A stretch of DNA of 64,000 nucleotides from Candidatus Aenigmatarchaeota archaeon (lineage in GTDB: Archaea; Aenigmatarchaeota; Aenigmatarchaeia; QMZP01; QMZT01), in assembly GCA_026397315.1 (NCBI GenBank), contig JAPLVC010000001.1:167742-231741 (forward strand), read 5' to 3'. The notes under the pieces were generated by a model. That model ran no database searches and was not told the DNA's origin. It saw only the letters and a list, made by a program, of their open reading frames with translations. Positions 45,731-64,000 of this stretch are shown here, piece after piece. Position numbers and translations under genes: made by a program. Positions within the stretch are counted from its first letter, which is position 1, and each line of letters starts with the position of its first letter.

Positions 45731-46924
45731 TTATTCGAAAATCATGGCTCTCGGTTGATTGGCCTGTTCCCTGGCGTTCTGCTCTATAGCAGCGAGCGCC
45801 GTGTCTATGTCGCTCTTCATCTTGTCGAAGCGCTTCTCGTAATTAGTGACGAAGTCGTTTATGAACTGCGTCGTGTGGGCGCGGAATACCTTTATCTCGT
45901 CCGTCTGCTTGATGAGTTCCGACGTCGACTTGTCTTCTGTGTGAGAAAGCCGCGCTATGATCTTGTCGCTCGCGTCGTTGAGTTTCGCCACCACGTTCTC
46001 ATTGAAGGCTTTCTGGTCGTCGGTCATCTTGGTTATGCGCTCGTCAGTCCATTTCTTGAGGTTGTCGATGCCAACCTCGGCGTTTTTCAGCCTGTTGTCG
46101 AAATATGAGTTCTTCTCCTTTAGCGAGTCTATCCTGCCGGCGAAGTTCTTGAGATCGACTGAAAGGTTGTCGAAGTCGTGCTTTATGTTTTCCTTCTTTA
46201 CTGCGAACATGTCCAGCTTTCCCGCTACGGACGTTTCGAATTCCTTCATCCTCGTTTTCTGGTCGGAGGCGAATTTCTCGAAGTCCTTGACGTCCTTGTT
46301 CAGCCTGTTTTCCAGGTCACGGACCTTAATCAGCTCGCTGTTCATCTCCTTTTCGATGCTGCCTATCTTCTCGTTTATCACGTTCTTCAGAGCCTCGTTC
46401 TTGCCCGCGAGCTCGTAGAGCGACTTGTTCAGGGAATTGATGTTACTGGTCAGCGACGCGATTTTCTTATCATACTCGCCGTTTCTCTCCATCACTTTCC
46501 GGGCGTTTTCCATGACCAGTTTCGAGTCTTTCTGGTTCTTGTCTATCATGTCCTTTGACTGCGCCATGAGCGTTGCGCTTATGGCTTTCGCCCTTTCCGT
46601 GAGCTGCGAATTGAGCTCGCGCGTCTCCAGCTTGACGTCTTCTTCGAGCTTCATTCTCATTGCGGCCTGGCGGCTTTCCAGGGACGCTATCGACTTCTCG
46701 AGGGATATCATGAAAGAGCGGATTGACGAGAGTTTCTCGTCCTTAGTTTCCGACTTGCCCGTCATGCTCGCGAGCTCGTTCTTGAGGAACTCTATGTCGC
46801 TGGTGTTCTTGTCAGTCGTCTTTTTCAGCTGCTCCACGAGGTATTCGTGCTTCTCGTGAAGCTCTTCCTTCTCCCGCTTGATTTCGTTTATCCTTTCCTT
46901 TATTTTGTCCAGTTTTTCGTTCAT
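45731..46924 (-). CDS. Coiled-coil protein (397 aa)
   Basis: All-helical K/E/D-rich heptads; ATGA overlap with the upstream gene. Confidence 0.85.
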   Translation of the reverse strand: MNEKLDKIKERINEIKREKEELHEKHEYLVEQLKKTTDKNTSDIEFLKNELASMTGKSETKDEKLSSIRSFMISLEKSIASLESRQAAMRMKLEEDVKLETRELNSQLTERAKAISATLMAQSKDMIDKNQKDSKLVMENARKVMERNGEYDKKIASLTSNINSLNKSLYELAGKNEALKNVINEKIGSIEKEMNSELIKVRDLENRLNKDVKDFEKFASDQKTRMKEFETSVAGKLDMFAVKKENIKHDFDNLSVDLKNFAGRIDSLKEKNSYFDNRLKNAEVGIDNLKKWTDERITKMTDDQKAFNENVVAKLNDASDKIIARLSHTEDKSTSELIKQTDEIKVFRAHTTQFINDFVTNYEKRFDKMKSDIDTALAAIEQNAREQANQPRAMIFE

Positions 46925-51084: not shown

Positions 51085-53018
51085 TCGCTTTTCAACTCTT
51101 TAAGAAGTATATTTATCTTGTCCCTCTGCCTTCGGTTCTCATCCTCGAATTTCTTCCTGTCGGCAAACGTCTGTTTAACAATGGTATTGAACTCGTTGAG
51201 AGTCTCGTCGAGCTTGCTGCCCGCAGCTAACAAACGTTTGTCCATATCCTTCTGGCGGAGCTCTATCGCCTTCGTCCATTCAGCGAGCGAATTTAGGGAT
51301 TTGCGCATCTCGGCGAGCTCGCTCACATTCCCTTTAAGGTCCTCGTGACGAGTCTTGAGTTTCTCGAGCTTCGCATCCGTCTTGGCCATCTCGTTCTTCA
51401 GCAGCGTGAGCGTCGGGTTTATCACGTTCTGGAACTGGACGAACTCCGCCTCGAAATCCTCGAACCTGTCGTTCGTCCCCTTGGTGAACTTGGCAATATC
51501 CGTGTCCATGTCCTTGAGACGCGGGCCGGATATGGTGGTGAACATGTCCTTGGCGCGCTCCTGCAGCTCCTTCTGGAACTCGGCCTGGTTGACTTTTATC
51601 TTCTCCACCCTGTCGTTCGTCTTCTCTATCCCCTCTTTCATCAGGGTGAGCGTCGGGTTGACGACGTTCTGGAACTGGACGAACTTGGAGAGCATGTCGT
51701 TGACCTTCGCCCTTGATACGGCGAGGTGCTTCTCCGTCCTGTCTTCAATCTCGAGAATCTTTTCCTCGGTCAAGTCGTCGAAATAGTCCTTGGTCTTGGC
51801 CTCGAGTTTTGCGGTGAACGCCTTGTCGAACTTGTCTATCCTGTCGTTTATGATGTCCGCCTTCTTCTGCAGCACGGCCTCCAGCTTGTTGACAAGCGCT
51901 ATCAGATTCGCTTCCTTTTCCTTGAGCTTGTCGTCCAGCCTGTCCTTCTTCGTCTGCAGGTCGGATATGTAGTCCCCGAACTTGTAAAGCGTCTTTATCT
52001 CGGTCTTGAAGTAATTGACTTCGTCGAAAAGCCTCTTGATGTTCTCGGCGCCCTTTTCTATGCCGTCCTTGACGCTTTTGATGTCCTCGAAGACCGGCGT
52101 GAGTTCCTTGCCGAGCTTCTTCTCTATCTCGTTCGGTATGATTTCACCGGTTATCTCGTCAGCGGAAAAAATGAATTTCTTGAGCTTCTCTATGTTGCCT
52201 GGGCCCATGCGTTCGATGAGGCCTTCGAGCTTCTCCTCGAATGTAGGGAAGCGTTCGAGGACCTTAATCTGCTCCTTTATCCTCGTTATCCTGGTGTCCA
52301 TCTCGTCCTTGAGCTCATGGACGCTTTTCTCGACGTCCTTCACGCTGCTCCTCATCTCGAGCAGGTCGTTCTTTATGTCGACGCGGCCGCCGAAGACTGA
52401 AAGGCCTTTCGAGACCTCTTCCTCTTTTCTCGGCTGGTCCATCCTCTCGACGAGCTTCTTTATCTCGTCCTGCAGGTCCACCATTTTCTTCGACGTCTCT
52501 GCCTGGACGTTGTCTATCATGTCCTTGACCTTGCTGCCCATCTTCTCCGGTTTCTCTGCCTTCGCCAGCTCCTCCATCTTCGTTCCCATGGCTGTGATGG
52601 CGCTGTGGACGTCCTTCATCTGGTCCTGCATCTGGCTTTTCATCCTGTTTTCGGCGTCTTTCATTTTAGACTCGACGTCGACTGACTGCTTTTCATTATC
52701 TTCTTCAGGCATATTTGACACCTTCTCAATTATTTCAGCAAGGCTTCTTGATTTTTCGCGCTCGTGCTCCAGTTCTTCTCTCAACTCATGCGCATCATCA
52801 TTATGCTTTTTCTTCTTCGGTTTCTCGTCTTCTTCGGATTCTTCCGGTTGTGCCGGGCTTTCGGCGCTATCGTCCGTCTCGTCGTGCGTCTCGTCGTGCG
52901 TCTCTTCCGAAGACTCTGTATCAAAATCGCTTTCAGGCGTGGCTTCGCCCTCGCCGCCTTCGGCGGCTTTCCCCAGCGCCTCCATGCCTTCGAATTCCTC
53001 ATTTTTCTTCTTGGACAT
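51081..53018 (-). CDS. Coiled-coil protein (645 aa) with acidic disordered N-terminus
   Basis: E/D-rich head; repeated FVQFQNVxNPTLTL. Confidence 0.88.
   Translation of the reverse strand: MSKKKNEEFEGMEALGKAAEGGEGEATPESDFDTESSEETHDETHDETDDSAESPAQPEESEEDEKPKKKKHNDDAHELREELEHEREKSRSLAEIIEKVSNMPEEDNEKQSVDVESKMKDAENRMKSQMQDQMKDVHSAITAMGTKMEELAKAEKPEKMGSKVKDMIDNVQAETSKKMVDLQDEIKKLVERMDQPRKEEEVSKGLSVFGGRVDIKNDLLEMRSSVKDVEKSVHELKDEMDTRITRIKEQIKVLERFPTFEEKLEGLIERMGPGNIEKLKKFIFSADEITGEIIPNEIEKKLGKELTPVFEDIKSVKDGIEKGAENIKRLFDEVNYFKTEIKTLYKFGDYISDLQTKKDRLDDKLKEKEANLIALVNKLEAVLQKKADIINDRIDKFDKAFTAKLEAKTKDYFDDLTEEKILEIEDRTEKHLAVSRAKVNDMLSKFVQFQNVVNPTLTLMKEGIEKTNDRVEKIKVNQAEFQKELQERAKDMFTTISGPRLKDMDTDIAKFTKGTNDRFEDFEAEFVQFQNVINPTLTLLKNEMAKTDAKLEKLKTRHEDLKGNVSELAEMRKSLNSLAEWTKAIELRQKDMDKRLLAAGSKLDETLNEFNTIVKQTFADRKKFEDENRRQRDKINILLKELKSE
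51406..51685. repeat. Intragenic direct repeat (about 40 bp, 240-bp period)
   Basis: GTGAGCGTCGGGTT...ACGTTCTGGAACTGGACGAACT at 51406-51445 and 51646-51685. Confidence 0.85.
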
Positions 53019-53037
53019 TCATAACCCCCAGGACAAG

Positions 53038-53304
53038 CTAGCCCAAATCCTCGATCAGCTTCTCTACGACGCTCTCGTTTTTCCGGACCTTCTTTTCAAG
53101 TTCTGCAATCCTTGAATTAATGTCCCCGAACCTCATCTCAAGCTCTTTGTTCGGGTCCGTGCCCAGATCTTCGAGGTCGCGCTTGAGTTTTTCGGGGATG
53201 AATTCCGGTTTTTCCCTCTTTCCCGTATATTTTATTCTATATATCTGATATAATAAAAAGCAAATCACGGCCAGCAATACCACTACCGTTATTTCATACA
53301 GCAT
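53038..53304 (-). CDS. Small protein with N-terminal TM helix and short coiled coil
   Basis: ITVVVLLAVICFLLYQIY followed by basic residues and heptads. Confidence 0.8.
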   Translation of the reverse strand: MLYEITVVVLLAVICFLLYQIYRIKYTGKREKPEFIPEKLKRDLEDLGTDPNKELEMRFGDINSRIAELEKKVRKNESVVEKLIEDLG

Positions 53305-53332
53305 ATAGATAATTTCTCCCAGTTTCTATAAA

Positions 53333-54115
53333 TTATTTCTCGGTGCGTTTTGGCCTGAAGAATTCGAGAATTCCGGAGAACATGCCCTTCGGCTCGATGT
53401 ATTCTTCGCCCACTATCTTGGCCGCGAGCCTTACGAATTCCTTGCTCGATGGCGAATTGGGCGAGAAAAGGACGACTGGCATCTTGAGCGCCAGGCTGCG
53501 TAGCACGTTTTTGTCCATGGGTATCGTGGATATCACGGGCAGCTCTATAAGCTCCTCGACTTCCTTGTTCGTGAGCTCGTATTTGTCCTTGCCCACCATG
53601 TTGAGCACGACGCCGAGCGACTTGACGCCCATCTCATTCGCCACCTGGTGACATTTTATGATGTCCATAGTTGATGGAACGAAAGGTGTGTTGACAAACA
53701 CGACCTCGTCCGCTGCTTTGACTGTCGCCATCGCTTCTCTTCCAAGGCCGGGCGCAGCGTCGAGAAGTATGATGTCCGCCTTGCCGAACAGCTTCTTTAT
53801 CGTGCTCTTCAGCTTGGCTATGTCCACCCCCTTTAAATCGCTGAACGAGAGCGACGCAGGGATGACGCGCAGGCCGTGTATGTGATACTGGTATATCGCA
53901 TCGTCAATGTGCGCGTCGCCTGTGAGAACCTGGTTAAGCGTGACCGGCGTGTAATAAAGGCCGAGGTAAAGGCCGAGATGCGACGTCGATATGTTGCAGT
54001 CGATGACAATGACGTCTTTCTTGAACTTCTGGGCGATGACCGAACCGAGATTCGCCACAACAGTGGTCTTGCCGACCCCGCCCTTGCCTGAGATAATGCC
54101 TATTACCCTTGTCAT
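53333..54115 (-). CDS. minD: MinD-family ATPase
   Basis: Deviant Walker A SGKGGVGKTT, LLDAAPGLG, GVVLNMV; C-terminal amphipathic helix GMFSGILEFF. Confidence 0.93.
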   Translation of the reverse strand: MTRVIGIISGKGGVGKTTVVANLGSVIAQKFKKDVIVIDCNISTSHLGLYLGLYYTPVTLNQVLTGDAHIDDAIYQYHIHGLRVIPASLSFSDLKGVDIAKLKSTIKKLFGKADIILLDAAPGLGREAMATVKAADEVVFVNTPFVPSTMDIIKCHQVANEMGVKSLGVVLNMVGKDKYELTNKEVEELIELPVISTIPMDKNVLRSLALKMPVVLFSPNSPSSKEFVRLAAKIVGEEYIEPKGMFSGILEFFRPKRTEK

Positions 54116-54183
54116 GCTACCCTCTGCGTATACCTTGTTTTTATTTCTTAAATTCTTGCTTTTGCGCTAGCGCCTCTGCAGGC

Positions 54184-54840
54184 TTACCACTTCAGCGCGC
54201 ACAGCATCCTGGAAAGCTCGTTCTCATCCTTCACCAACACAGGGAAATCTATCGCTTTTCTGAGTTGTCCGTCTATCGCTCGCATGTAGTTCAGCAGGTC
54301 GCGCTCAGTCGCTAGCGCAATCGACGTGGAAATCATGCGGAGGACGACGTCTGCCTCGTATTTCTTGCAGAACATCCTGAGATTAGAGAAAAGCACGTAA
54401 AGGAATATGTCCACGAATACCTGCGGCCCGTATTTGCCCACCAGCTCCTTGTCGTTCCTGTAGAGAATTTTGAGATTTTTGACATCGAAAAACACGGAGC
54501 GGTATTTCTCCATGAATTTCTGCACTGCCGCCCATTTCGTCCTCAGCAGGAAGTCGGGAAGCCAGTCGCCAGCGCCGCTGGCCGGATATTTCTGCAGTAT
54601 GTAGCCCGGGACCCACTTGAATTCGGCTTTCAACCGTTTGCCCGTTTTGGTTATGTAGTTGTCCCTTATCATGGACCTGAAGAGCGGGCCTTTAAGCCCG
54701 ACCTCGTCGTGGTAGAGGTAATTGGTCTTCACGTCCCACGTCGTCTGTATCTCGAAAAGCGAGAGTCCCTTCTCGCTGCCGCAGTTTATCCATATGAGCC
54801 AGAAATTTTTGTAGTCCGTTATCCTCTGTTTCGTTTTCAT
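54184..54840 (-). CDS. Hypothetical protein leading the minD operon, possible N-terminal winged helix
   Basis: 218-aa ORF with TATA-like TATTTATATA about 30 nt upstream; LSLFEIQTTWDVKTNYLY segment. Confidence 0.7.
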   Translation of the reverse strand: MKTKQRITDYKNFWLIWINCGSEKGLSLFEIQTTWDVKTNYLYHDEVGLKGPLFRSMIRDNYITKTGKRLKAEFKWVPGYILQKYPASGAGDWLPDFLLRTKWAAVQKFMEKYRSVFFDVKNLKILYRNDKELVGKYGPQVFVDIFLYVLFSNLRMFCKKYEADVVLRMISTSIALATERDLLNYMRAIDGQLRKAIDFPVLVKDENELSRMLCALKW

Positions 54841-55003: not shown

Positions 55004-58000
55004 CTATTTGAAAGCCGCCTTCTTTTTGTCGATGGCCACCAGCTTCTCTTCATTGCGCCTCTTCAGGTCGGCATACGCGTTTTCAGAAATGAGGCCTTCC
55101 TTGAACTCGCGCTCGAGCAGGCCGAGCACGCGTCTCACATTCGCCTCTTCTTTCTCGAATGTCTCCTTCTCCTTCATCTTCTCTACGAACACGGACGCTT
55201 TCGCCGCGCCGGCCGCGCCTGGCACCTGCATCCTGAAAACCTTGTCGAAGACGCCTCTCATCTTCTTGACCATGAACAGCAGCGCGCCTATCACTATCGC
55301 CAAGATGACGAGTATGATTATGAGCCACGGAGGGATTATAGTTTCCATGAGTATCTCGGTGAACGGTGCCTGGGCAAGCAGGTATCTCGCTTTCTCAAGT
55401 ATGCTCCATCCTGTGTGGACCGCGCTGAGCGACTCGTCATACATCTTCTTCTCGAGATAGTCTTCCGAGAGCCTTATCTGCTCCTTTATCTGGTCGACAT
55501 AGGGAAGGACGTCTTTCACGTTTTTGCCGGCCTTTTGTGCGTTGGCTATGTCGGACTCAAGCTCCTGCACCGCCTTTGTCAGCCTTTCTATCTCCCAGCG
55601 TATAAGCTCAGCCCTGGAAGCGAAAAGCGTGATGGAGAACGACTTCTGGTCTTTCGCTGAGCTGGAATTGGCCGTTATCTGGCCCACGTATTCTTTCGTT
55701 TCCGCGGTAGGCGGGATTTTAAGCGTTATGGTAAAAATGGTGCTGTTGCCCACGCCAAGCGAATCCACGACCTTGGGCGATATGTCCTGTATCCAAGGCG
55801 ATGGTATGCCCGATATTTTGATCGTTACGTTGTAAAGTTTGCTGCCGCCGGAGTTCTTGACCTCGATGGTCGGGTATTTTACCGAGTCGAGCTCCATGCC
55901 TAACTCCTGCGGGTATTTTATAATCTCTATTTTCGGCGGCAACGATGGCGCGCCTGCACCTGCGCCTTCTTCCGCAGGTCCGCCTGCAGGCGGCTGGGGC
56001 GGCTGCGTCCCGCCTTCCACGACAAGGAAGCTGGAGTTTGCCGTGGCGACGGGTTGCGTCGAGTCATAAGTCACTTTCGCGTTTATGAAATACTGTCCGA
56101 GCGGCTGGCCTGAAACAACGTAAAGGCTCCTTATGAGCGTGCGGTTGGCATAGGCGTTTATCATAAGGGATTCGGACCTGTAATCCCAGGTCTGGTTCGC
56201 TCCGGATATCCAGTATTCCAGAAGCACGTCCGGCGTCGTGCCGCCCATGTTTATGAGAGTGAGCTCGAAGTCGGCATAGTCCGACCTCGTCACCTCGGTG
56301 TCGAGCATGTTTATGCTGACGTCGTATGGACCACCTGTCGTTATGCTGAATGGAATCATGTCCCACGCTTCCTTGTCACCGTTGCCGACCCTCATGACTG
56401 CAAGGTATGTGCCTGTGAGCGTGCTGCTGCTTATGAGCTCGTTATAAGTGTAGAAGCACGTCATGTTCTGAGTCATGTTGCTTTTGTGCAGAACTCTCCA
56501 CGTCTGCGGCGTGTAGCCCTCGGTATAATATATCGTGATATCGATTGTTTCCGGCTCGCTGGCCATGCACTCGCCGTTGTCAAGTATGAAAACGCTGATG
56601 GGCATGACTTTCTCCCTGTAAACGTAGTAGGGTATGCCCAACTCGGCCTTGACCTTGCTCGCGTCCCTGACTTCAGTCGGGAAGGATGAAGTCGCGTTTA
56701 TCATCTTGTTGACGCTGGTCTCGTTGTATGTCCCGTTCGCCGAGAACGTGTAGTTCCCGAGGATGGCGTTAGTCGGAACGAGGTATAAGGCTCCCGCATC
56801 GCCGTTCGCGTCCGTGACGAAGGTCCTGCCGTTCCAAAAGTAATAATCCTTGTTGCCGCCGTTCGGGTCCACGAAGCTGATGTTAACATTCGCCCCGGCG
56901 AGCGGTGTGCCGACCGCGTCGCGCGACTTTATGCGCACCTCAAGCGAGTCGCCGCGGTAGGCGTATCTGGTCGTGTTCAGGTCTATGAAAAGCTTGTAGT
57001 AAATGAAAAAGCTGCTGTTGATGGTATTGTTCTTGCCACGATTGTCGACGGCGTAAATGGTCACATTGTAATAGCCCTTCAATGTTGTGTTGCCCCATAT
57101 TCCCGGGTTCAGGAAATAAAAAGGGTTTTCTGGATAGCTGACGTTCCACTTCGTGATGCCTCCGCTGGCGGTGCCGGTGAAAGTCATCATCACGGTACTG
57201 TTGACGCCGTCTGGTCTTGTAACGGTCACTGTCACATTAGAGTCGGTCGCATTATATCCTATGCCGGCGCCCGACTGGTCCGTGACGTTAACGTATATCC
57301 ACGTCTCTCCTAGCTGCTCTGTTATGTTTGGCGTAAAGCTCATGGAGAGGCTGGGCTTTATGAACGGGTTGAGCACGACCTGCAGTACGGTGTAGTTCGG
57401 TGACGAGCCTGCCTGTATGGCATCGATGGTGTAGTTGGCGTAATAGAACTTGATGGTTTGGTTGGTTATGTTGTATTGAACGAAGAGCGTGTAATTGCTG
57501 ACATTTGCGACGGTGAAGTTGACAGCGCTGGTCCACGTGCGGTTCAGCATGCTAGAGGAGCTGGTGGCGGGTATGATGGTGAAGTTTATGTCGACGTTGC
57601 CGGTGTTGTTTACCAGAACGTCGCAGGCGACGCCCTCTTCAGGTGACATGACTTTCTCGCAATATGTCGTGTTGAGCGTCCACGTTCTCGACGTCGGGAC
57701 GGTTATGTTGACCGCGATTTCCTTGTAGCCGCCGTTTGCGCTCGTTACATTTATCAGGCCTGTGTAAAGTCCGGGAAGCGTGCCTATCTTCGCAGTAACG
57801 TTGACCATGACTCCGCCAGGGTATTCTCCGCCCAGCGATGCGACGTCCGACGGGATGAAAAGGAACGTGAAGTCCGGGCTGAAGTTGGAAGCGGCGAAAG
57901 CGATGGTCTCGGACGGGTCGTTGCCCGTCGAGTTGAGCGTTATGTTGCCTATGTGCACTTGCGTTCCATGAGTCACGTTCTTGACTATCGAATCGGTGGG

Positions 58001-60958
58001 AACCGTAAGATTGATGTGGGACGTGACCGTTATGTTAAGCATCGTGCTGTTGGAGTTTTTGCCGCTTTCGGGGTCCTCCCACTCTATCGAGACGTTGGCC
58101 GTGTAATTGCCGGAGTGCGTCGTGGGCAGAACCGTGAAAAGTATGGTAGTCGTGCAGCCCAGCGCTTTGCCGATGTTGCCGCACAAATATGCTGTTTCGT
58201 TGGCTGTTATGTTCGCGGATGACAAATTGATTTTTATGGTGGCGTTATACGCCGTCGAGTTGCCTATATTCGTCGTGTTTACTGCCAGCGAGAAGTTCTG
58301 CCCGTTGTACCAGGAAACGTTTTCGGCTGTGAAGTTGTATTTGTCGAGAGCGATGGTCATGTTGGTCCCGGCGACTGCGATGGTCACGTTTATGATGCGA
58401 TGACCAGCATTCGCTGTTGTCACGTTTATGGTGCCGTTATATTCTCCCGACGTTATGTCGGTGCTCGAGTTGACCCATATCTCCACGTTCTGCGAGACGC
58501 CGACTCCGATGGAAGTCGAGTTGTAAGGCACGAAAAGGAACGTCAGGTTCTCCGGGAAGCCCAGCAGGGTGAAATTGACGTTCTGCAGCGGAACGTTACC
58601 CAAGGCGTCGACGGTGAAATTGTCTATGTTTTTCGGCGGCCTGCCCGATGCTATTATGCCGAGCACGAAATTCTTGGGCACGTTCATCAGCGGGTTGGTA
58701 AGGACGGATATGTTTATCGCGGAACTGTTGAAACCAGGCAACGCGTTGGAATTGCGCCAGCGCACGCTTATGTTGGCCGTGTAATTCGCCGGCGGCGTTG
58801 CGCCGAGCACGATTATCTGGAAGGTTTTCGTGCAGTTCTTGGTGAGCAGGAGGTCGCCGCAAAAAGCGACGGTTGTGTTGGCCGTTATGTTGGGGCTCGA
58901 GAAGTTGAGCGTTATGTTCAGGTCGTAGGCGCTGCCGTTCGCTATGTTCTTGACCATGACGGAAATGTTGAAGATCTGGTTGGAATACGACGTCACGTTG
59001 TCCGCGACGAGGCTGTATGTGTCCGACGTGATGCTCACGTTCGTATCGTATGTCTCGCACGTGAACTCGCCGAACGCGTATCCCGTGTTGTTGTTGCGCG
59101 CCACGTTGCATGACAATGTGAACAGGTCGGCATAAGACGGCGCCGCGAACCAGAGGCGATAAGTTCCGTTGCCCAGGTCGCTTATGTTCTGCTGCGGCAC
59201 TTCGGTCGAGGCGAACGTGCAGTTGATCGTGGCGTTGGCAATCCACCTGTCCTGCCTGAAGTTCCTGACTGAAACCGTGGCGTTTATCTGCCTGCCTGTG
59301 AAGCCTGTCGGGTTCGTTATGTTAACCGTGGCGTTGTATGTGCTGGTCACGTTGAATGGGAAAGAGCTCGTGTTCAGGGCGTAGCCGCTCTGGTTGTATG
59401 CAGTGAACGTCGTGTTCCATACGCCTGTCGCATCCGCATCGAGAATGCCGTAAATGTTGGCGAATACGCCATCGCCGGCGGCGCTGTCGTTGTGACTGCC
59501 GTCATCGTAAAGAGTTATATTAGACTGGCCTACGCCTGCCTTGTTTATGCTGGCGTTTATCTTGCCGGAAACATTGTAAAGGTCGCTCACGTTGGCCCAT
59601 ATTATGACGGTCTCGTTCCTGTTGAATATCTGGACCTGGTTCGTTGCATTGGCATAGAATTTGCCGTCCGGGAAGACTGTTCTTATCTCGCCTGCATGTG
59701 TCGTTATGTTCAGGAGCGTGATGCTCTGGTTGACGAAACCCAGGAAGTGGTCTTCCGCCCCGAGGCTGCCGCTCGCGTTGAACTGCACGACGGTTGTGTG
59801 GCTTATTGACGATCCGGCGGCTATTGTAGTTTCAGTTAGTTGAACGCCCATCATGCCGGTAGCACTGTCGAATAGCGCGAAGAAATTGGAAGTTCCCGTC
59901 TCGTTTATGTTGACAAGACCCATCCAGAATGTACCGCCATACTGGTTCGCCCAGCCATAAGAGCCTGGGTCCGCGGGATTGGACATGTTGTTATAGTAAG
60001 GGTTACCCTCAGACTCCCTGAACGTGTAAGTGAGGTTCATGCCAAGCGCGCCCGAGACTGTCGAATTCCTGGTGATGCTGTAGGTGGCGTTGTTGACAAA
60101 AATCTGCTCTATCTTAATCCAGTCGAGATAGCGGTAGAACGTGTATCTCTTTATCATGTAGCCCTCTGTCATGTTGCCGGGCTGGTTCCATTTTATCTCG
60201 TTGCCCCTCTGCTCGAAAACTATCCTGGCGGGACCGGCATATTTCAGGGTGGCGTTGTTCCTAAAGTCGAAGCCAAATACGTCGCTAGCGTTGGAAAGGC
60301 TGGAATACTCGGCCGCCTTGCCTACGGAAGGGTCGACAAGAAGTATGTCGTTATCGTGAAGCGCGTCCTGCACCTGGTAGAAGCCGGACGTGTTTTCCTC
60401 GAGCGCCGTGTTCACTCCCCAGCGGAAGAGCGTGTTGTTGACGCTGAACGACTCCATGTTGCCGTTGGCGCCGGTGTAGTTGTACGCGAGGTCGGTGGTG
60501 TATGATTTTGCCTGCTTGTTGCCGTTTTCAATCGTATCGAAATATATGTAAAAATAGCGGATATGATTCGCAACGCTGGTTCCGTTCATCGAGAACGCGG
60601 CTGTTCCCACGGCGTTTGTGCTTGCGTTGTAACCATCGCTTTTGTCGAACTGCGAAGGCACCTCGTAAAGTATGGTCCCGCTGGAATTGTATTCGACCAC
60701 GCGCGTCGAGTTCTCGTCGAACGTGCCGTAAACGCTCATGTTGTTGAGGATGCGGGTGAAGTTTATGGCGTATTCGACCGGCCAGTCGGTCCTGTTGTAA
60801 AAGGTGCTGTTTATCTCCAGGCCGACCCTGTAATGCCATCGCACGTCGTACCAGCGGTAATTATAAGACTGTGAAAATGTGCCGGAAAAGCTCACCAGCA
60901 GCATGGCCGATAATATCACTAATGCCAAAACTAATTTGCCGTGACGGATTGAACTCAC
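55004..60958 (-). CDS. Giant membrane-anchored surface glycoprotein (DUF2341-like N-domain, Ca-binding DDG module, many Ig-like domains, helical stalk, TM, short cytoplasmic tail)
   Basis: Signal peptide; WHYRVGLEI; YDDGSHNDSAAGDGVF; very many NxS/T sequons; 226-aa internal duplication; TM WLIIILVILAIVIGALLFMV; GTG start overlaps the upstream stop. Confidence 0.85.
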   Translation of the reverse strand: MSSIRHGKLVLALVILSAMLLVSFSGTFSQSYNYRWYDVRWHYRVGLEINSTFYNRTDWPVEYAINFTRILNNMSVYGTFDENSTRVVEYNSSGTILYEVPSQFDKSDGYNASTNAVGTAAFSMNGTSVANHIRYFYIYFDTIENGNKQAKSYTTDLAYNYTGANGNMESFSVNNTLFRWGVNTALEENTSGFYQVQDALHDNDILLVDPSVGKAAEYSSLSNASDVFGFDFRNNATLKYAGPARIVFEQRGNEIKWNQPGNMTEGYMIKRYTFYRYLDWIKIEQIFVNNATYSITRNSTVSGALGMNLTYTFRESEGNPYYNNMSNPADPGSYGWANQYGGTFWMGLVNINETGTSNFFALFDSATGMMGVQLTETTIAAGSSISHTTVVQFNASGSLGAEDHFLGFVNQSITLLNITTHAGEIRTVFPDGKFYANATNQVQIFNRNETVIIWANVSDLYNVSGKINASINKAGVGQSNITLYDDGSHNDSAAGDGVFANIYGILDADATGVWNTTFTAYNQSGYALNTSSFPFNVTSTYNATVNITNPTGFTGRQINATVSVRNFRQDRWIANATINCTFASTEVPQQNISDLGNGTYRLWFAAPSYADLFTLSCNVARNNNTGYAFGEFTCETYDTNVSITSDTYSLVADNVTSYSNQIFNISVMVKNIANGSAYDLNITLNFSSPNITANTTVAFCGDLLLTKNCTKTFQIIVLGATPPANYTANISVRWRNSNALPGFNSSAINISVLTNPLMNVPKNFVLGIIASGRPPKNIDNFTVDALGNVPLQNVNFTLLGFPENLTFLFVPYNSTSIGVGVSQNVEIWVNSSTDITSGEYNGTINVTTANAGHRIINVTIAVAGTNMTIALDKYNFTAENVSWYNGQNFSLAVNTTNIGNSTAYNATIKINLSSANITANETAYLCGNIGKALGCTTTILFTVLPTTHSGNYTANVSIEWEDPESGKNSNSTMLNITVTSHINLTVPTDSIVKNVTHGTQVHIGNITLNSTGNDPSETIAFAASNFSPDFTFLFIPSDVASLGGEYPGGVMVNVTAKIGTLPGLYTGLINVTSANGGYKEIAVNITVPTSRTWTLNTTYCEKVMSPEEGVACDVLVNNTGNVDINFTIIPATSSSSMLNRTWTSAVNFTVANVSNYTLFVQYNITNQTIKFYYANYTIDAIQAGSSPNYTVLQVVLNPFIKPSLSMSFTPNITEQLGETWIYVNVTDQSGAGIGYNATDSNVTVTVTRPDGVNSTVMMTFTGTASGGITKWNVSYPENPFYFLNPGIWGNTTLKGYYNVTIYAVDNRGKNNTINSSFFIYYKLFIDLNTTRYAYRGDSLEVRIKSRDAVGTPLAGANVNISFVDPNGGNKDYYFWNGRTFVTDANGDAGALYLVPTNAILGNYTFSANGTYNETSVNKMINATSSFPTEVRDASKVKAELGIPYYVYREKVMPISVFILDNGECMASEPETIDITIYYTEGYTPQTWRVLHKSNMTQNMTCFYTYNELISSSTLTGTYLAVMRVGNGDKEAWDMIPFSITTGGPYDVSINMLDTEVTRSDYADFELTLINMGGTTPDVLLEYWISGANQTWDYRSESLMINAYANRTLIRSLYVVSGQPLGQYFINAKVTYDSTQPVATANSSFLVVEGGTQPPQPPAGGPAEEGAGAGAPSLPPKIEIIKYPQELGMELDSVKYPTIEVKNSGGSKLYNVTIKISGIPSPWIQDISPKVVDSLGVGNSTIFTITLKIPPTAETKEYVGQITANSSSAKDQKSFSITLFASRAELIRWEIERLTKAVQELESDIANAQKAGKNVKDVLPYVDQIKEQIRLSEDYLEKKMYDESLSAVHTGWSILEKARYLLAQAPFTEILMETIIPPWLIIILVILAIVIGALLFMVKKMRGVFDKVFRMQVPGAAGAAKASVFVEKMKEKETFEKEEANVRRVLGLLEREFKEGLISENAYADLKRRNEEKLVAIDKKKAAFK

Positions 60959-62550
60959 CTTTTGCCAAGGATCATCTTCCTGGTCTTATCGTAAGCTTCT
61001 TTGCTTATCATGCCTTTCCTGAAGGTTTCTTCAAGGTCTTTGAGAAGCATGTCGTTCCTGTTTTTCTGGTCTTTTGTGAACACTGGCTCTTTCTTCTCTA
61101 CCTTCACCGGTTTAGCCGGTACCGGCTCTTTTATGGTCTGAGTCGCTTTAGGTGCGGCCTTGTTGTCCAGCTCCTTGAGCTTTGCGAGATTCGCATTTCT
61201 CATCTTTTCGTATTCTCCCTTCGAAATCGATTTGCTCTTGAGCTCGTCCTCTAGCGTTTTGAGCAGCATCTTTATCTCTTCTTTCTGCGATTCTCTTTCA
61301 TCCGAAGCAGCGGCTGGAGCATACGACGCGGCGGATGATATGGTTGCCTGGACGCTGGACCTGAACGACTCCAAGTCGTCTCGTGTGACGAAATACGCCG
61401 CTTTCGTGTTCAGCTCGTCCAGGTTCTTCAGCACGTCGTTGAGCATGTCGTCCACCCTGTCCTGCTTGGCGCGGTAAAGCATGAATTCTTCCATCCTCTT
61501 GCTGAGCTCGGCATACATGCCCTGAATCTTGTCTGACATCTTCTGCACGCTTCTCTGCATGTCCTGCATTTCCATGAGCTTCTCGGACGCTTCCGTCCCT
61601 ATCTTTATCACGTGTTCGAGGCTGCCGATGTTGCGGAGAAGCGTCTCGATGCGTTTGAGCATCTCGCCGAATTCCTTCGACGTCTCCTCCAGCTTGTTGA
61701 CGCGCAGGGCCTGGTTGCTTATTTCCTTGTCCCTCCTGCCAATCTCCAGCAAAAGTTTCTCAGGCTCCAGCTTGGACAACAAGTCAATCATTTTTTCCAT
61801 CTTTATTTCCTGCTCCTTCGTCGAAGCCTCCCTGCCGTAGACCATCGTCCTTACTTCTGCAAGTCCCTCGACGACGCGCTGTATCTTGTCGTCGTCAATT
61901 TTTCTGCTCTCTTTGACCGCTTCCAGCTGGGCCTTCATCTTGTCTATCTCGGCGTCGAGCTTCGCGAAGCTGTTCCTCATCTCGGTCATGTCCTTGTCCG
62001 TGACCTTTGAACCGATTTCCTCCACCATCTTCCTTATGCTGTCGGCGAGATCCATCTGCATCTTCTGCAGGTCGTCCTGGCTTATGCCGAGAGCTGCGGC
62101 TTTTTCCTTCTCCTTCTTGCCCTTCGCTTTCTCCGCCGCAGGCGGCAGCTCCTCTTCGACATCCTCAATTACGGGAATCTCGACCTTCGGCCTGACAATT
62201 TTCACGGGCTGCCGGATGGGTTTTTCCTGGACATCTTCCTCTGGGATGACAGTGGAAGCGGCTGCCTGCGCCTTGGAAATGGCCTCTATCTTTCTGTTTA
62301 TTTCATCGAGCTTCTTCTCGTTCTTGGACTTTATGTCATCATAATCCGCTTCCAGTATCGACGCTTCGCTGTAGGCGTCCTCAAGCGACGACAGCAAAGC
62401 CTGTATCTCTTCCCTCTGGTGTGTCAGTTGCTCAAGGCTTTCAGTCGGTAGCGAAGCCTGACGGATCTTGGGCTGGCTCTCGGTTTTCACAGAAATATTT
62501 TTTTTGGGCGCACTCCTTGCCCTAACCGGTTTGCCCCTTTTCCCCGCCAT
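60955..62550 (-). CDS. Soluble coiled-coil protein with three SHOCT-like helical motifs
   Basis: LEDAYSEASILEADY, LEDELKSKSISKGEY, LEETFRKGMISKEAY; long central coiled coil. Confidence 0.82.
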   Translation of the reverse strand: MAGKRGKPVRARSAPKKNISVKTESQPKIRQASLPTESLEQLTHQREEIQALLSSLEDAYSEASILEADYDDIKSKNEKKLDEINRKIEAISKAQAAASTVIPEEDVQEKPIRQPVKIVRPKVEIPVIEDVEEELPPAAEKAKGKKEKEKAAALGISQDDLQKMQMDLADSIRKMVEEIGSKVTDKDMTEMRNSFAKLDAEIDKMKAQLEAVKESRKIDDDKIQRVVEGLAEVRTMVYGREASTKEQEIKMEKMIDLLSKLEPEKLLLEIGRRDKEISNQALRVNKLEETSKEFGEMLKRIETLLRNIGSLEHVIKIGTEASEKLMEMQDMQRSVQKMSDKIQGMYAELSKRMEEFMLYRAKQDRVDDMLNDVLKNLDELNTKAAYFVTRDDLESFRSSVQATISSAASYAPAAASDERESQKEEIKMLLKTLEDELKSKSISKGEYEKMRNANLAKLKELDNKAAPKATQTIKEPVPAKPVKVEKKEPVFTKDQKNRNDMLLKDLEETFRKGMISKEAYDKTRKMILGKR

Positions 62551-62621
62551 GATAATTAATTAACTGTAATAAAATATATAATAGTAAAATAAGCGAACCT
62601 TGGTGAAAATCGTTTTCTGCT

Positions 62622-64000
62622 TTATGCCTTTAACCTAGCCTTCAGCGACTCTATGTAGCTTTCCGCCATCGAGAACTGGCCGGCCTTCATCTTGTCCCTC
62701 GCGAGATTGAGCTCTATCTCTAAGTCGGTCGTGTCGACCTTCCTCGCCTTCATGGACTCGATCTGCTTATGTATCTTCTCGATCTCATCCTGGACATTGA
62801 CGTACTTGGCTATCTCCTCGTCGGTCAGCCTGCCCGTGTCGTGCAGCAGCGGACGGAAGGCTATGAAATACGGCTTGCCTTCGTTGAAGGCCGGGTTCTG
62901 GACAAGCGCCGTGCCTGTCGTAAGCTTCACGACCCTGGATGCGAAGTCCATGCCGTACTTGGTCTTCACCCTTCCGATGTCACCCTCGTATTTCGTCCTA
63001 AGCTGGAGCTCTGTGGCTATGTTCGCACGGATAGCGCCCCTGAAGTCCATGAGTACCTGCGATATCATGAATACGCCTATGCCCCACTTACGGAACTCAC
63101 GGCATGCGCGTTCGATAGCAATATAACCGCCTTTACCGCCGTACTTCGGAAGCAGCCTGTGGACCTCGTCGTATATGAGCAGGAGCTTCAGCTCTCTCTC
63201 TTCAGGCAGCGCGGCCTTGAAGACTGACGTGACCGTCCTCTGCACGAACTTGTCCAGATACCCCGGGTCCAGCTTGTTCATGACGAAGACCGTCATCTCG
63301 CCAGGCTTCCTGTATTTCTGGATGTCCACTTCCATCTCAGGGTCAGTGACGAGCACGATGTTCGTCTTGAACGCCATCGCTTCGTCCGGCTTCATGCCGA
63401 ACTGCGCGTAAAGGTCGAACATCCTCTTGTCCTTGCACGGCTTCATGAAGCCCGTCCACTGCGCGGTCGGGTCGAACACTATTATCGGCATCCCCCTCTT
63501 CAGCAGTTCCTCCGAGCAGACCATGGCTGAGACGGATTTTCCGGAGCCAGTCGCTCCTGCTGCCAGCGAGTGCATCATCAGCGATCTTGTGTCGATGTAC
63601 GCTTTCACATCTGTCTCCGCAATCTTGCCCACGAGTACTGTGTCAGGTCCAGGCTTCGGCAGCTTGTTGAAGTCAAGCGGGAAGATGTATCTCTTGCCTT
63701 TCTTCTTCTTGTCTTTCCACGTCGCTAGGAATCGGCGGCCGAAGTAGATGCCGGGTATCGCTGCGAACGCTATCGCGTACGTGGCCCAGTGCATGAACAC
63801 CGCGCGCAGCAGGGCGAGGGGCGCGGGCAGCACGAACACGTCGAACGAGTCGACCGCATACGCCGACTTCTTGCCATACCAGTATGTCACGTTGACCTCG
63901 ACTATATACCTGTCCTGCGGCGTGTCGTCGGGGATGGATATCGTCTTTGTAAAGCTTTTCACGCTGTCGACTGCGATGGTCTCGCTGTTCCTGAGTATGA
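62622..64000 (-). CDS. 5'-truncated membrane-anchored HerA/DUF87-like P-loop ATPase with N-terminal Ig-like segment
   Basis: Frame open to the window edge; TM WATYAIAFAAIPGIYFG; Walker A GATGSGKS; VFDP; Walker B LIYDEVHRLL; REFRKWG; ISQ. Confidence 0.9.
   Translation of the reverse strand, partial: ILRNSETIAVDSVKSFTKTISIPDDTPQDRYIVEVNVTYWYGKKSAYAVDSFDVFVLPAPLALLRAVFMHWATYAIAFAAIPGIYFGRRFLATWKDKKKKGKRYIFPLDFNKLPKPGPDTVLVGKIAETDVKAYIDTRSLMMHSLAAGATGSGKSVSAMVCSEELLKRGMPIIVFDPTAQWTGFMKPCKDKRMFDLYAQFGMKPDEAMAFKTNIVLVTDPEMEVDIQKYRKPGEMTVFVMNKLDPGYLDKFVQRTVTSVFKAALPEERELKLLLIYDEVHRLLPKYGGKGGYIAIERACREFRKWGIGVFMISQVLMDFRGAIRANIATELQLRTKYEGDIGRVKTKYGMDFASRVVKLTTGTALVQNPAFNEGKPYFIAFRPLLHDTGRLTDEEIAKYVNVQDEIEKIHKQIESMKARKVDTTDLEIELNLARDKMKAGQFSMAESYIESLKARLKA

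What the first reader, a model, noticed from the sequence alone, without database searches (positions are those of the whole stretch)
55004..64000. Membrane-anchored HerA-like ATPase + coiled-coil scaffold + giant surface glycoprotein: candidate trans-envelope machine
Seen: the ATPase has HerA/FtsK/VirB4-superfamily motifs but is preceded by a TM helix and an Ig-like segment resembling the surface protein's domains (IPDDTPQDRYIVEVNVTY versus VVSGQPLGQYFINAKVTY). No nurA/mre11/rad50 lies downstream of it in the window (its upstream side is outside). It is followed by a soluble coiled-coil protein coupled (GTGA) to a 1984-aa TM-anchored Ig-rich protein. Known: this superfamily forms ring motors that pump DNA or protein. 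Inference: a motor with its own ectodomain, an adhesin-like subunit and a cytoplasmic scaffold could form a host-contact, uptake or secretion device of a symbiotic archaeon.
Basis: partly seen in the sequence, partly recalled or inferred. Interest (0 to 1): 0.82.

Follow-up and report, generated by a model that had tools for sequence, protein, structure and literature searches.

The report
SPEARE-type giant surface ATPase with partners
The "membrane-anchored ATPase" is the last 458 residues of a giant, sugar-coated surface protein of a tiny symbiotic (DPANN) archaeon, a type already published as "SPEARE"; its two neighbours are fixed partner genes across many DPANN lineages, which the papers I could search do not describe, and what the set does is still untested.

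Summary
The three genes are real and their anatomy is largely as described. The scale is wrong. The ATPase ORF is cut by the contig end. In relatives the same module is the C-terminus of proteins of 2,700 to 14,525 aa, built as signal peptide, huge N-glycosylated beta-sandwich ectodomain, one TM helix, HerA/VirB4-branch P-loop ATPase and helical hairpin.

This is the published SPEARE architecture (Hamm 2019; Reva 2023). The window's ATPase matches the C-termini of 9,433- and 8,891-aa ORFs in Nanohaloarchaeota at E about 1e-102. It is not the repair HerA, because canonical DUF87 genes and NurA lie elsewhere in this genome.

- A coiled-coil adaptor follows the ATPase in 73 of 80 related loci.
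- A roughly 2,000-aa orthologue of the glycoprotein is present in 32 of 48 loci with enough flank, across several DPANN phyla.
- The glycoprotein's cytoplasmic tail shares a conserved 55-residue helical module with the adaptor (HHalign 97%, E 5e-11).

Function (host contact or transfer) remains inference. The scan has reported this protein type and its partner genes before, on other genomes. Verdict: a known protein type in a conserved gene set I found in no paper; moderate interest.

The parts
62622..64000 (-). 3' end (458 codons plus stop) of a SPEARE-type giant surface protein gene; the 5' part is lost at the contig end
   Evidence: The ORF is open at the window end and the window end is the end of contig C3. 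Orthologues are the C-termini of ORFs from 2,728 aa up to 14,525 aa.
63825..63998 (-). Last extracellular beta-sandwich fragment (residues 1-58 of the partial ORF)
   Evidence: The AF2 model shows strands 29-39 and 44-54. Family consensus IPxxxxxGxYxxxxxAxY...FxVxxP.
63753..63824 (-). Single transmembrane helix (about residues 59-82), followed by a basic KDKKKKGKR stretch on the cytoplasmic side
   Evidence: Hydropathy segment 51-72. Continuous helix 59-101 in the model.
62829..63650 (-). HerA/VirB4-branch RecA-like P-loop ATPase core (residues 117-390) with intact Walker A, Walker B, REFRKWG and SQ motifs
   Evidence: Pfam DUF87 2.4e-10 and HerA_C 5e-8. Invariant residues G148-K154, D277, E278, R300-G306, S313 and Q314 in 50 sequences. 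Fold matches: HerA 4d2i Z 26.4, DndH-C 24.4, VirB4 23.1, TrwB 19.0, FtsK 17.3; Foldseek HerA 1.7e-13.
62625..62822 (-). C-terminal three-helix hairpin / coiled coil (residues 393-458)
   Evidence: Helices 393-418, 424-438 and 442-457 at pLDDT about 96. Conserved in the family (consensus of 80 tails). Matches the 'coiled-coil domain at the tip' described for SPEARE proteins.
62551..62621 (-). 71-nt AT-rich spacer with a TATA-like TTATATAT about 25 nt upstream of the adaptor's ATG; possible internal promoter (inference only)
   Evidence: Sequence read.
60955..62550 (-). 531-aa cytoplasmic coiled-coil adaptor with three copies of a helical LLxxLExxYxxGxISxxAY module
   Evidence: No TM segment and only 1 sequon. 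No Pfam family. An orthologue lies directly downstream of the ATPase in 73 of 80 loci.
62278..62442 (-). Adaptor module copy 1 (residues 37-91), homologous to the glycoprotein's tail
   Evidence: HHalign of the tail profile against the adaptor N-terminal profile: probability 97.2%, E 4.7e-11, 55 columns. Reversed control P 0.25.
60958..61263 (-). Adaptor module copies 2 and 3 (residues 430-470 and 503-531)
   Evidence: Motif scan. HHalign of the tail profile against the adaptor C-terminal profile: probability 90.5%, E 1.4e-6. Pfam SHOCT_2 only E 0.05, below its cut-off.
60955..60958 (-). GTGA overlap of the adaptor's stop codon with the glycoprotein's GTG start (translational coupling)
   Evidence: The N-terminal extension from the GTG start is conserved in orthologues, whose alignments begin at residue 1.
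55004..60958 (-). 1984-aa partner glycoprotein: signal/TM 3-30, all-beta ectodomain with 119 sequons, helical stalk, TM 1866-1904, and an 80-aa cytoplasmic tail carrying the shared module
   Evidence: Pfam NPCBM_assoc 6e-8, MG2 2e-6 below its cut-off. AF2 model of residues 25-1200, pLDDT 86.2, all beta. Generic Ig/MG-array fold matches. Full-length orthologues of 1,890-2,100 aa at 28-62% identity.
55007..55246 (-). Cytoplasmic tail of the glycoprotein (residues 1905-1984) with the conserved module VLGLLEREFKEGLISENAYADLKRRNEEKL
   Evidence: Conserved in 23 orthologues. Profile matches to the adaptor.
45731..54840 (-). Context, not part of the core trio: 218-aa protein, archaeal MinD, 88-aa TM protein and three long coiled-coil proteins, co-directional downstream
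   Evidence: minD_arch 7.6e-71. Syntenic in the closer relatives only. MinD is near the trio in 20 of 48 loci. Subject of another finding, e1-5631126.

Best explanation
Shown: the window holds the 3' end of a SPEARE-type giant surface protein gene and its two conserved partner genes, in an Aenigmatarchaeota (DPANN) genome of about 1 Mb.

Shown in orthologues, inferred for this gene: the full protein has a Sec-type signal peptide, a heavily N-glycosylated ectodomain of thousands of residues made of beta-sandwich domains, one TM helix, a cytoplasmic HerA/VirB4-branch ATPase with intact catalytic motifs, and a helical hairpin.

Shown: downstream, a cytoplasmic coiled-coil adaptor is translationally coupled to a roughly 2,000-aa C-terminally anchored glycoprotein. 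That glycoprotein's short cytoplasmic tail carries the same 55-residue helical module as the adaptor.

Inferred mechanism:
- The ATPase domains assemble into a ring under the membrane, as HerA, VirB4 and FtsK do. This bundles several giant ectodomains into a long surface fibre.
- The adaptor docks the partner glycoprotein's tail through the shared module, and may link the assembly to the MinD and coiled-coil proteins encoded next to it.
- The whole forms a surface organelle for contact with another cell. ATP hydrolysis drives either a conformational or assembly step, or the passage of a polymer (DNA or protein).

The confidence given is for the whole statement. Identity as SPEARE-type plus conserved partners is about 0.95. 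The contact-organelle mechanism is about 0.4.
For: Family and architecture:
- 360 cluster representatives match at E<1e-30, nearly all with the module at the extreme C-terminus of proteins up to 7,665 aa.
- In relatives' genomes the ORFs reach 14,525 and 13,459 aa. They carry 923 and 661 sequons, an N-terminal signal/TM segment and, in the 14,525-aa ORF, a TM segment just before the ATPase.
- The published description of SPEARE and related giant proteins gives the same order of parts.
- The window's ATPase hits the C-termini of 9,433- and 8,891-aa ORFs in Nanohaloarchaeota genomes at E 6e-102 and 3e-104. Each has a 620-660-aa paralogue next to it, as published for SVXNc_0300 and BNXNv_0298.

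ATPase:
- AF2 pLDDT 92.7. HerA Z 26.4, VirB4 Z 23.1. All catalytic motifs are invariant in 50 sequences.

Partners:
- Synteny holds in 8 of 8 fetched loci from three families.
- All 18 relatives with an orthologous ATPase also have the glycoprotein.
- The adaptor is present in 73 of 80 loci, and the glycoprotein in 32 of 48 loci with enough flank. These include Undinarchaeota and a Nanohalarchaeota MAG.
- Shared module: HHalign 97.2%, E 4.7e-11; reversed control P 0.25.
- GTGA coupling.
Against: - No experiment exists for any member of this gene set. Even for SPEARE proteins only expression has been shown (PMC6642349).
- One TM helix per subunit, with no polytopic membrane protein in the conserved set, makes a translocation channel hard to picture.
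- The ectodomain is not hypervariable between congeners: 67.7% identity, against 71% for the partner. This gives no sign of an arms race with a host.
- The halophilic Nanohaloarchaeota with published SPEARE proteins lack the partner glycoprotein with this query. The partners are therefore not obligatory for the family.
- In this genome the giant part of the gene is not assembled, so its size here is inferred from relatives.
Confidence: 0.6

Rival explanations
1. DNA (or nucleotide) import device. The ring ATPase is a membrane-anchored DNA translocase in the manner of FtsK, TraB, CedB or VirD4. It pulls host DNA into a cell that cannot make its own nucleotides, and the giant ectodomain and partner glycoprotein hold the host.
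For: - The fold belongs to the FtsK-HerA pumping ATPases. All close matches are nucleic-acid motors or T4SS ATPases: HerA, DndH, VirB4, TrwB, TcpA and FtsK.
- The best NCBIfam hit is the Sulfolobales DNA-import ATPase CedD (5e-9).
- Hamm 2019 already proposed DNA uptake for SPEARE proteins.
Against: - The CedD, TraD and TraC hits lie far below their cut-offs (35 bits against 600) and cover only the P-loop.
- No CedA/VirB6-like polytopic channel, pilin or relaxase lies in the conserved set.
- There is a single TM helix per subunit.
- No DNA-binding domain was detected.
Confidence: 0.15
2. Envelope and division module. The 1984-aa glycoprotein is the cell's main S-layer-type wall protein. The neighbouring coiled-coil, MinD and rod genes organise the envelope or division. 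The giant ATPase protein is merely a co-located surface fibril.
For: - The glycoprotein has the hallmarks of archaeal wall proteins: a signal peptide, 6 sequons per 100 aa, a helical stalk, a C-terminal TM anchor, and a length conserved at about 1,900-2,100 aa.
- SbsB S-layer protein is among the fold matches.
- MinD is adjacent in many loci.
Against: - The glycoprotein was not found in 13 of the 40 relatives searched, including all 5 of one family (one of them 96% complete in 7 contigs). None of these 13 has an orthologous giant ATPase either, though one has a more distant (45% identical) paralogue. A wall protein should not track one accessory gene.
- It sits directly behind the giant gene and its adaptor across phyla.
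- It shares a cytoplasmic module with that adaptor.
- The fold matches are generic Ig arrays.
Confidence: 0.15
3. Protein secretion 'straw', as proposed by Reva et al. 2023. The VirB4/TraG-like domain pumps effectors to the host through or along the giant ectodomain.
For: - Published proposal for the nanohaloarchaeal homologues.
- VirB4 and coupling proteins are close fold matches (Z 23.1 and 19.0), and EccC-type secretion ATPases score Z 17.
Against: - The VirB4 N-terminal domain (PF03135) is absent, and AAA_10 and T4SS-DNA_transf score at or below their cut-offs.
- HerA ranks above VirB4 by both sequence and fold.
- No other T4SS component lies in the locus.
- A chain of beta-sandwich domains is not a conduit.
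Confidence: 0.08
4. Repair helicase HerA with unrelated neighbours that are adjacent by chance.
For: HerA is the best sequence and fold match.
Against: - There is no HAS barrel; a TM helix and an ectodomain take its place.
- The DUF87 match covers only 60 of 220 positions at 41 bits. Two canonical DUF87 ORFs (133 and 118 bits) and NurA lie elsewhere in the genome.
- Neighbour conservation across 70+ loci rules out chance.
Confidence: 0.01

Closest known systems
SPEARE proteins, also called 'giant membrane-anchored extracellular proteins', of Nanohaloarchaeota (Hamm et al. 2019, PMC6642349; Reva et al. 2023, PMC10266531: SVXNc_0300 at 9,409 aa, BNXNv_0298 at 8,880 aa, NAR1_1133 at 5,998 aa)
   Same: - The order of parts is the same: signal peptide, giant adhesin-like ectodomain of Ig-like domains, one TM helix near the C-terminus, cytoplasmic P-loop ATPase, terminal coiled coil.
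- The ATPase domains are homologous (E about 1e-102, 41-44% identity).
- Hamm 2019 already noted similar cytoplasmic domains in Aenigmarchaeota, Woesearchaeota, Micrarchaeota and Altiarchaeales.
   Different: - Here and in most Aenigmatarchaeota the gene is followed by a coiled-coil adaptor and a roughly 2,000-aa partner glycoprotein (often with MinD). The published nanohaloarchaeal loci have a second ATPase paralogue instead, and those halophilic genomes lack the partner with this query.
- Complete Aenigmatarchaeota orthologues reach 13,459-14,525 aa.
- No PQQ propeller, LamG, protease or toxin-like domain was detected in the 14,525-aa orthologue; Pfam finds almost nothing in it.
HerA (repair helicase of HerA-NurA; also anti-phage Sir2-HerA and DUF4297-HerA)
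   Same: - Best match of the ATPase core by profile (4d2i, 3.8e-11), by Foldseek (1.7e-13) and by VIA (Z 26.4, 252 residues at 2.7 A).
- The segment aligned to ...REGRKFGVGL..SQ in HerA is conserved.
   Different: - No HAS-barrel N-domain and no nuclease partner.
- Membrane-anchored and fused to an ectodomain.
- Canonical HerA-like genes and NurA are encoded elsewhere in the genome.
T4SS and conjugation ATPases (VirB4; coupling proteins VirD4/TrwB/TcpA/DotL) and the archaeal Ced system (CedB, CedD)
   Same: - Same superfamily. VirB4 Z 23.1, TrwB Z 19.0, TcpA Z 17.5; DotL 1.4e-4.
- N-terminal membrane anchoring of a cytoplasmic ring ATPase, as in coupling proteins.
   Different: - No family-specific domain, and the curated models are not reached.
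- No other T4SS or Ced gene in the conserved set.
- Anchored by a giant ectodomain rather than a small TM hairpin.
Archaeal S-layer / stalk proteins with a coiled-coil stalk and C-terminal anchor (SlaB-type, tetrabrachion-type): comparison for the 1984-aa partner, from my own knowledge
   Same: Secreted, heavily N-glycosylated beta-rich ectodomain, a helical stalk before a C-terminal TM anchor.
   Different: - It has a conserved cytoplasmic tail module shared with the adjacent adaptor.
- Its distribution tracks the giant ATPase gene rather than being universal among relatives.

Membership tests
SPEARE-type giant membrane-anchored proteins | Cytoplasmic domain homologous to that of the nanohaloarchaeal SPEARE or giant proteins | tested here: met
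   E 6e-102 and 3e-104 to the C-termini of 9,433- and 8,891-aa open frames in Nanohaloarchaeota genomes, each with a short paralogue adjacent. This fits the published SVXNc_0300 and BNXNv_0298.
SPEARE-type giant membrane-anchored proteins | Single TM helix near the C-terminus, with the ATPase on the cytoplasmic side | tested here: met
   Hydropathy. Helix 59-101 followed by a basic stretch. One sequon in the ATPase fragment (at residue 35, before the TM helix), against 6 per 100 aa in the ectodomains.
SPEARE-type giant membrane-anchored proteins | Very long extracytoplasmic N-terminal part made of adhesion-type domains | tested here: inconclusive
   For this gene the 5' part is beyond the contig end and is not elsewhere in the assembly. 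It is met in every orthologue examined: more than 4,465 aa in a congener at 88% identity, and 13,459 and 14,525 aa where complete.
SPEARE-type giant membrane-anchored proteins | Terminal coiled-coil or helical domain after the ATPase | tested here: met
   Helices 393-457 at pLDDT about 96; conserved in 80 tails.
HerA repair helicase | N-terminal HAS barrel and a full-length DUF87/HerA model match | tested here: not met
   The model has a TM helix and no barrel. DUF87 is matched over positions 3-62 of 220 only. NCBIfam HerA models score 18-31 bits against cut-offs of 800-970.
HerA repair helicase | Operon with NurA (and Mre11/Rad50) | tested here: not met
   None of the nine downstream genes matches, and none appears in the orthologous loci, including upstream of the complete genes. 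NurA is at C4:8018.
VirB4 / VirD4-type T4SS ATPases | Family-specific domains (VirB4 N-domain PF03135; T4SS-DNA_transf / TraG above cut-off) | tested here: not met
   PF03135 is not hit. T4SS-DNA_transf scores 20.7 bits for the whole protein (cut-off 20.1), but no single stretch passes. AAA_10 scores 15.8 bits against a cut-off of 27.5. TraD and TraC models score 19-20 bits against cut-offs above 360.
VirB4 / VirD4-type T4SS ATPases | Other T4SS or Ced components in the locus | tested here: not met
   Pfam scan of all neighbours. The conserved neighbours are coiled-coil proteins, a glycoprotein and MinD only.
FtsK/SpoIIIE | Polytopic N-terminal membrane domain, FtsK_SpoIIIE model above cut-off, gamma domain | tested here: not met
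   One TM helix. 20.6 bits against a cut-off of 24. FtsK fold Z 17.3, below HerA and VirB4.
SHOCT domain (for the shared helical module) | Match to the Pfam SHOCT / SHOCT_2 models | tested here: inconclusive
   SHOCT_2 E 0.05-0.14 at 13-14 bits, against a cut-off of 24. The resemblance of the consensus is from my own reading.
Archaeal S-layer protein (for the 1984-aa partner) | Lattice-forming, abundant main wall protein present throughout the lineage | tested here: inconclusive
   Anchor, glycosylation and stalk features are met. It was not found in 13 of the 40 relatives searched, none of which has an orthologous giant ATPase. Abundance and lattice formation cannot be tested with these tools.

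The most novel reading that the evidence does not exclude
The giant ATPase-anchored fibre, the coiled-coil adaptor and the roughly 2,000-aa glycoprotein (with MinD and long rod proteins in many lineages) form one DPANN-wide, ATP-driven, cytoskeleton-tethered cell-contact organelle. It is unrelated in composition to T4SS, Ced, pili or archaella. The 55-residue helical module is its cytoplasmic docking code.
Probability: 0.3. Interest if true: 0.8.

Novelty: new variant of a known kind. Interest (0 to 1): 0.45.

Why it matters
DPANN archaea live attached to other cells, and how they hold and exploit a host is an open question. SPEARE-type proteins are the main candidates, yet they have been discussed only as single proteins.

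The gene comes with fixed partners across several DPANN phyla. One partner's cytoplasmic tail shares a docking-type module with the adaptor. This gives concrete interaction hypotheses that pull-downs, complex prediction or cryo-ET could test.

The complete Aenigmatarchaeota genes (about 40-44 kb, roughly 4% of a 1-Mb genome) encode proteins longer than the 8,553-9,409-aa proteins that the two papers I read call the largest in archaea. They also break short-read assemblies, as happened here.

Tried and rejected
- I looked for the missing 5' part of the gene at the other contig ends. Open ORFs exist at the ends of C1, C2, C4, C5, C6 and C7. None matches the ectodomain of the congener's 4,465-aa orthologue or of seven other giant orthologues.
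- Repair HerA reading: rejected.
- A shared module in the ATPase's own C-terminal hairpin: HHalign probability 1.9%, so it is not shared.
- SHOCT membership of the module: below the Pfam cut-off.
- ESM Atlas look-up for the 1984-aa protein: returned only its own cluster.
- Fold search of the glycoprotein's first 1,176 modelled residues: only generic Ig/MG arrays, and no informative head domain.
- Pfam on the complete 14,525-aa orthologue: almost empty. It found NPCBM_assoc, DUF87 and HerA_C, plus a sub-threshold HTH at the very start.
- Hypervariability of the ectodomain between congeners: not seen.
- Literature: no paper holds both 'DPANN' and 'DUF87'. 'DPANN' with 'HerA' and 'giant' gave nothing relevant. 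The SPEARE link came, before I opened the scan's notes on other genomes.
- A proper phylogeny against curated HerA, VirB4, VirD4, CedB and FtsK sequences was not possible, because I had no reference sequences by reference. Model scores and fold Z-scores were used instead.

Full report
**What is in the window.**
All relevant genes lie on the minus strand.
- An ORF runs from beyond the window end to 62622 (458 codons, no start).
- After a 71-nt AT-rich spacer comes a 531-aa ORF (62550..60955).
- Its TGA overlaps the GTG start of a 1984-aa ORF (60958..55004; AGGTGAGTT).
- Further downstream lie a 218-aa protein, an archaeal MinD (minD_arch 7.6e-71), an 88-aa TM protein and three long coiled-coil proteins. 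These are the subject of another finding (e1-5631126).

The window is the last 64 kb of contig C3 in a 1.05-Mb, 7-contig assembly, so the first ORF is cut by the contig end. The closest loci elsewhere carry Aenigmatarchaeota titles.

**The ATPase fragment.**
- Pfam finds only the P-loop part of DUF87 (2.4e-10) and HerA_C (5e-8). T4SS-DNA_transf, FtsK_SpoIIIE and AAA_10 score at or below their cut-offs.
- The best NCBIfam model is CedD at 35 bits, against a cut-off of 600.
- An AlphaFold2 model from a 50-sequence alignment is confident (pLDDT 92.7). It shows a beta-hairpin fragment (29-54), one long helix (59-101) whose first part is the hydrophobic TM segment, a RecA-like core (117-390) and a three-helix hairpin (393-457).
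- Walker A (G148-K154), Walker B (D277, E278), REFRKWG (300-306) and SQ (313-314) are invariant in 50 sequences. The domain therefore looks catalytically competent.
- By profile against PDB sequences the nearest structures are HerA proteins (3.8e-11 to 5e-7). DotL scores 1.4e-4, FtsK 0.05 and TrwB 0.66.
- Foldseek ranks HerA first (1.7e-13), then FtsK and TcpA (about 3e-9).
- The Foldseek-independent search gives HerA Z 26.4, DndH-C 24.4, VirB4 23.1, TrwB 19.0, TcpA 17.5, FtsK 17.3 and EccC 17.2.

The domain thus sits in the HerA/VirB4 branch of the FtsK-HerA superfamily. It lacks the HAS barrel of HerA and the N-domain of VirB4. The genome has two canonical DUF87 genes (133 and 118 bits) and a NurA gene on other contigs, so this is not the repair helicase.

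**What the fragment belongs to.**
- An exhaustive search of 1.8 billion cluster representatives gave 1,024 hits, 360 of them below 1e-30. Almost all carry the module at the extreme C-terminus of very long proteins of 2,033 to 7,665 aa.
- In whole genomes of relatives the matching open frames are 4,465 aa (same genus, 88% identity, itself cut by a contig end), 5,373, 6,351, 8,399, 13,314, 13,519 and 14,526 aa stop to stop.
- From their first start codons, the two frames I could check as complete are 13,459 and 14,525 aa.
- Each of those two has an N-terminal signal/TM segment, and they carry 661 and 923 NxS/T sequons. In the 14,525-aa ORF a TM segment lies just before the ATPase.
- Pfam sees almost nothing in the 14,000-aa ectodomain.
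- The remainder of the gene in this genome is on no other contig. Its size here is inferred from relatives.

**It is a known protein type.**
A literature search led to the SPEARE proteins of Nanohaloarchaeota (Hamm et al. 2019, PMC6642349) and their re-analysis (Reva et al. 2023, PMC10266531).
- The described order of parts is signal peptide, Ig and PQQ-propeller domains, about 75 Ig-like domains, a TM helix, a 'VirB4/TraG-like' ATPase and a terminal coiled coil.
- Hamm et al. already noted similar cytoplasmic domains in Aenigmarchaeota, Woesearchaeota, Micrarchaeota and Altiarchaeales.
- I tested the link directly. In 70 Nanohaloarchaeota genomes the window's ATPase matches the C-termini of 9,433- and 8,891-aa open frames (E 6e-102 and 3e-104; 41-44% identity). 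Each has a 620-660-aa paralogue next to it.
- This fits the published 9,409- and 8,880-aa proteins and their downstream second ATPase.

The family occurs in Aenigmat-, Micr-, Nano-, Woese-, Undin-, Nanohal-, Parv- and Altiarchaeota-labelled MAGs. The scan's earlier notes reach the same verdict on other genomes, including the 14,525-aa protein. I opened those notes only after making the link myself.

**The partners.**
- In 8 of 8 loci fetched from three families of the order, the gene order is giant ATPase gene, adaptor, then a roughly 2,000-aa glycoprotein. In seven of the eight a MinD gene follows, preceded by the 218-aa gene in the six loci that extend that far, and in those six coiled-coil rod genes follow too.
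- All 18 relatives with an orthologous ATPase also have the glycoprotein. Five more have only contig-edge fragments of the glycoprotein. In 13 genomes I found neither the glycoprotein nor an orthologous ATPase. These include all five genomes of one family, one of which is 96% complete in 7 contigs.
- Among 80 loci from the species-level genome collection, 73 have the adaptor within 3 kb downstream.
- Of the 48 loci with at least 9 kb of downstream flank, 32 have the glycoprotein (28 nearly full length, 28-62% identity) and 20 have a MinD.
- These include Undinarchaeota and the Nanohalarchaeota MAG QJJ-7.
- Micrarchaeota loci have a larger coiled-coil gene and no glycoprotein within the flank.
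- The halophilic Nanohaloarchaeota with published SPEARE proteins lack the glycoprotein with this query. The window therefore represents a locus variant different from the published one.

**Anatomy of the partners.**
- The 1984-aa protein has a signal/TM segment (3-30) and 119 sequons, or 6 per 100 aa. Cytoplasmic proteins of the operon have 0-0.8 per 100 aa. No sequon lies after the C-terminal TM segment (1866-1904). An 80-aa tail follows.
- Residues 25-1200 model as an uninterrupted chain of beta-sandwich domains (pLDDT 86.2). Fold matches are generic: hydin, alpha-2-macroglobulin MG domains, titin, SbsB, GhpA. 'Ig-rich' is right, but no specific binding function follows from it.
- The adaptor is TM-free and sequon-poor.

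**The shared helical module.**
- The glycoprotein tail carries a conserved module, consensus RmLxLLErEykEGIISxxAYxeLKKRnEeKL in 23 orthologues.
- The adaptor carries related modules at its N-terminus (residues 37-91) and twice near its C-terminus.
- Profile-profile comparison gives 97.2% probability (E 4.7e-11, 55 columns) for tail against the adaptor's N-terminal module.
- It gives 90.5% (E 1.4e-6) for tail against the adaptor's C-terminal module.
- Reversed-profile controls give P 0.25-0.6.
- The ATPase's own hairpin does not share the module.
- The module resembles SHOCT but does not reach the Pfam cut-off.

This supports the docking idea of e1-5631128 at the level of homology. It does not show binding.

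**How it most likely works.**
Shown:
- a SPEARE-type giant glycoprotein whose cytoplasmic HerA/VirB4-branch ATPase has intact catalytic motifs;
- an adaptor translationally coupled to a second anchored glycoprotein;
- a shared cytoplasmic module;
- tight phyletic and positional linkage.

Inferred, from what ring ATPases of this superfamily do:
- The ATPase domains form a ring beneath the membrane and so bundle several ectodomains into a fibre.
- The adaptor ties the partner glycoprotein, and possibly the MinD and rod proteins, to that ring.
- The assembly mediates contact with another cell.
- ATP drives assembly, a conformational change, or the transport of DNA or protein.

Points that weaken a transport reading:
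- There is one TM helix per subunit and no polytopic membrane partner.
- The ectodomain diverges no faster between congeners than its neighbours do (67.7% against 71% and 59%).

**Verdict.**
The interpretation matches an already published hypothesis for a known protein family. The conserved partner set appears in none of the papers I could search, and the scan has reported it repeatedly on other genomes. Interest is moderate.

Noticed in passing
L029:3-5120 (G014:C3, N-terminus of the 14,525-aa orthologue): The giant ORF begins with about 85 residues that look like a winged-helix HTH (Pfam HTH_11, E 9e-4, below cut-off). They lie in frame, with no stop, before the signal/TM segment MKSEVGQIQILAVV. 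This is either a separate upstream gene read through or a cytoplasmic N-terminal DNA-binding domain. The 13,459-aa orthologue lacks it.
   Followed up: partly
L022+L023 (G004:C2:755000-794999): In the closest relative (91% identical ATPase, 4-contig assembly) the giant gene is split into at least five consecutive frames of 2,597, 505, 660, 2,094 and 1,087 aa. This could be long-read frameshift errors or a decaying gene.
   Followed up: no
G000 contig ends (C1 start, C2 end, C5 start): Three contig ends carry the same sequence, seen as identical translated stretches DVRRHGLFEVNNAAEKRTESRVHNIQPV... and MFGDTVYSRSTMQQKKELKVV... A repeat appears to break the assembly there.
   Followed up: no
G000 contig ends C1 (end), C2 (start), C4 (end), C5 (end), C6 (end), C7 (end): Several other contigs also end inside large secreted or surface-protein ORFs (open frames of 188-1,123 aa with signal peptides, Cys-rich or LamG-like stretches). 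Big surface-protein genes are the main cause of fragmentation in this genome.
   Followed up: no
window 62551-62621: An AT-rich 71-nt spacer between the ATPase stop and the adaptor start holds a TATA-like TTATATAT about 25 nt upstream of the ATG. The adaptor and glycoprotein pair may have its own promoter.
   Followed up: no
Nanohaloarchaeota genomes G080, G081, G082, G063, G091, G093: The giant ATPase-tailed ORFs (1,784-9,433 aa) are each followed directly by a 620-680-aa paralogue of the same ATPase family. This is a different locus design from the Aenigmatarchaeota one.
   Followed up: partly
G010, G015, G019, G026, G035 and G040: Some relatives carry two or three paralogous giant ATPase-tailed genes (45-49% identical ATPase, ORFs of 2,000-5,200 aa). 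Only one copy is detectable in this window's assembly.
   Followed up: no
L032 (G035:C2, downstream of the glycoprotein): In this more distant family the MinD and rod genes do not follow the trio. Instead a KaiC/RadA-like 275-aa ATPase and a 1,367-aa secreted protein lie convergently, and a MinD-like gene sits upstream of the giant gene.
   Followed up: no
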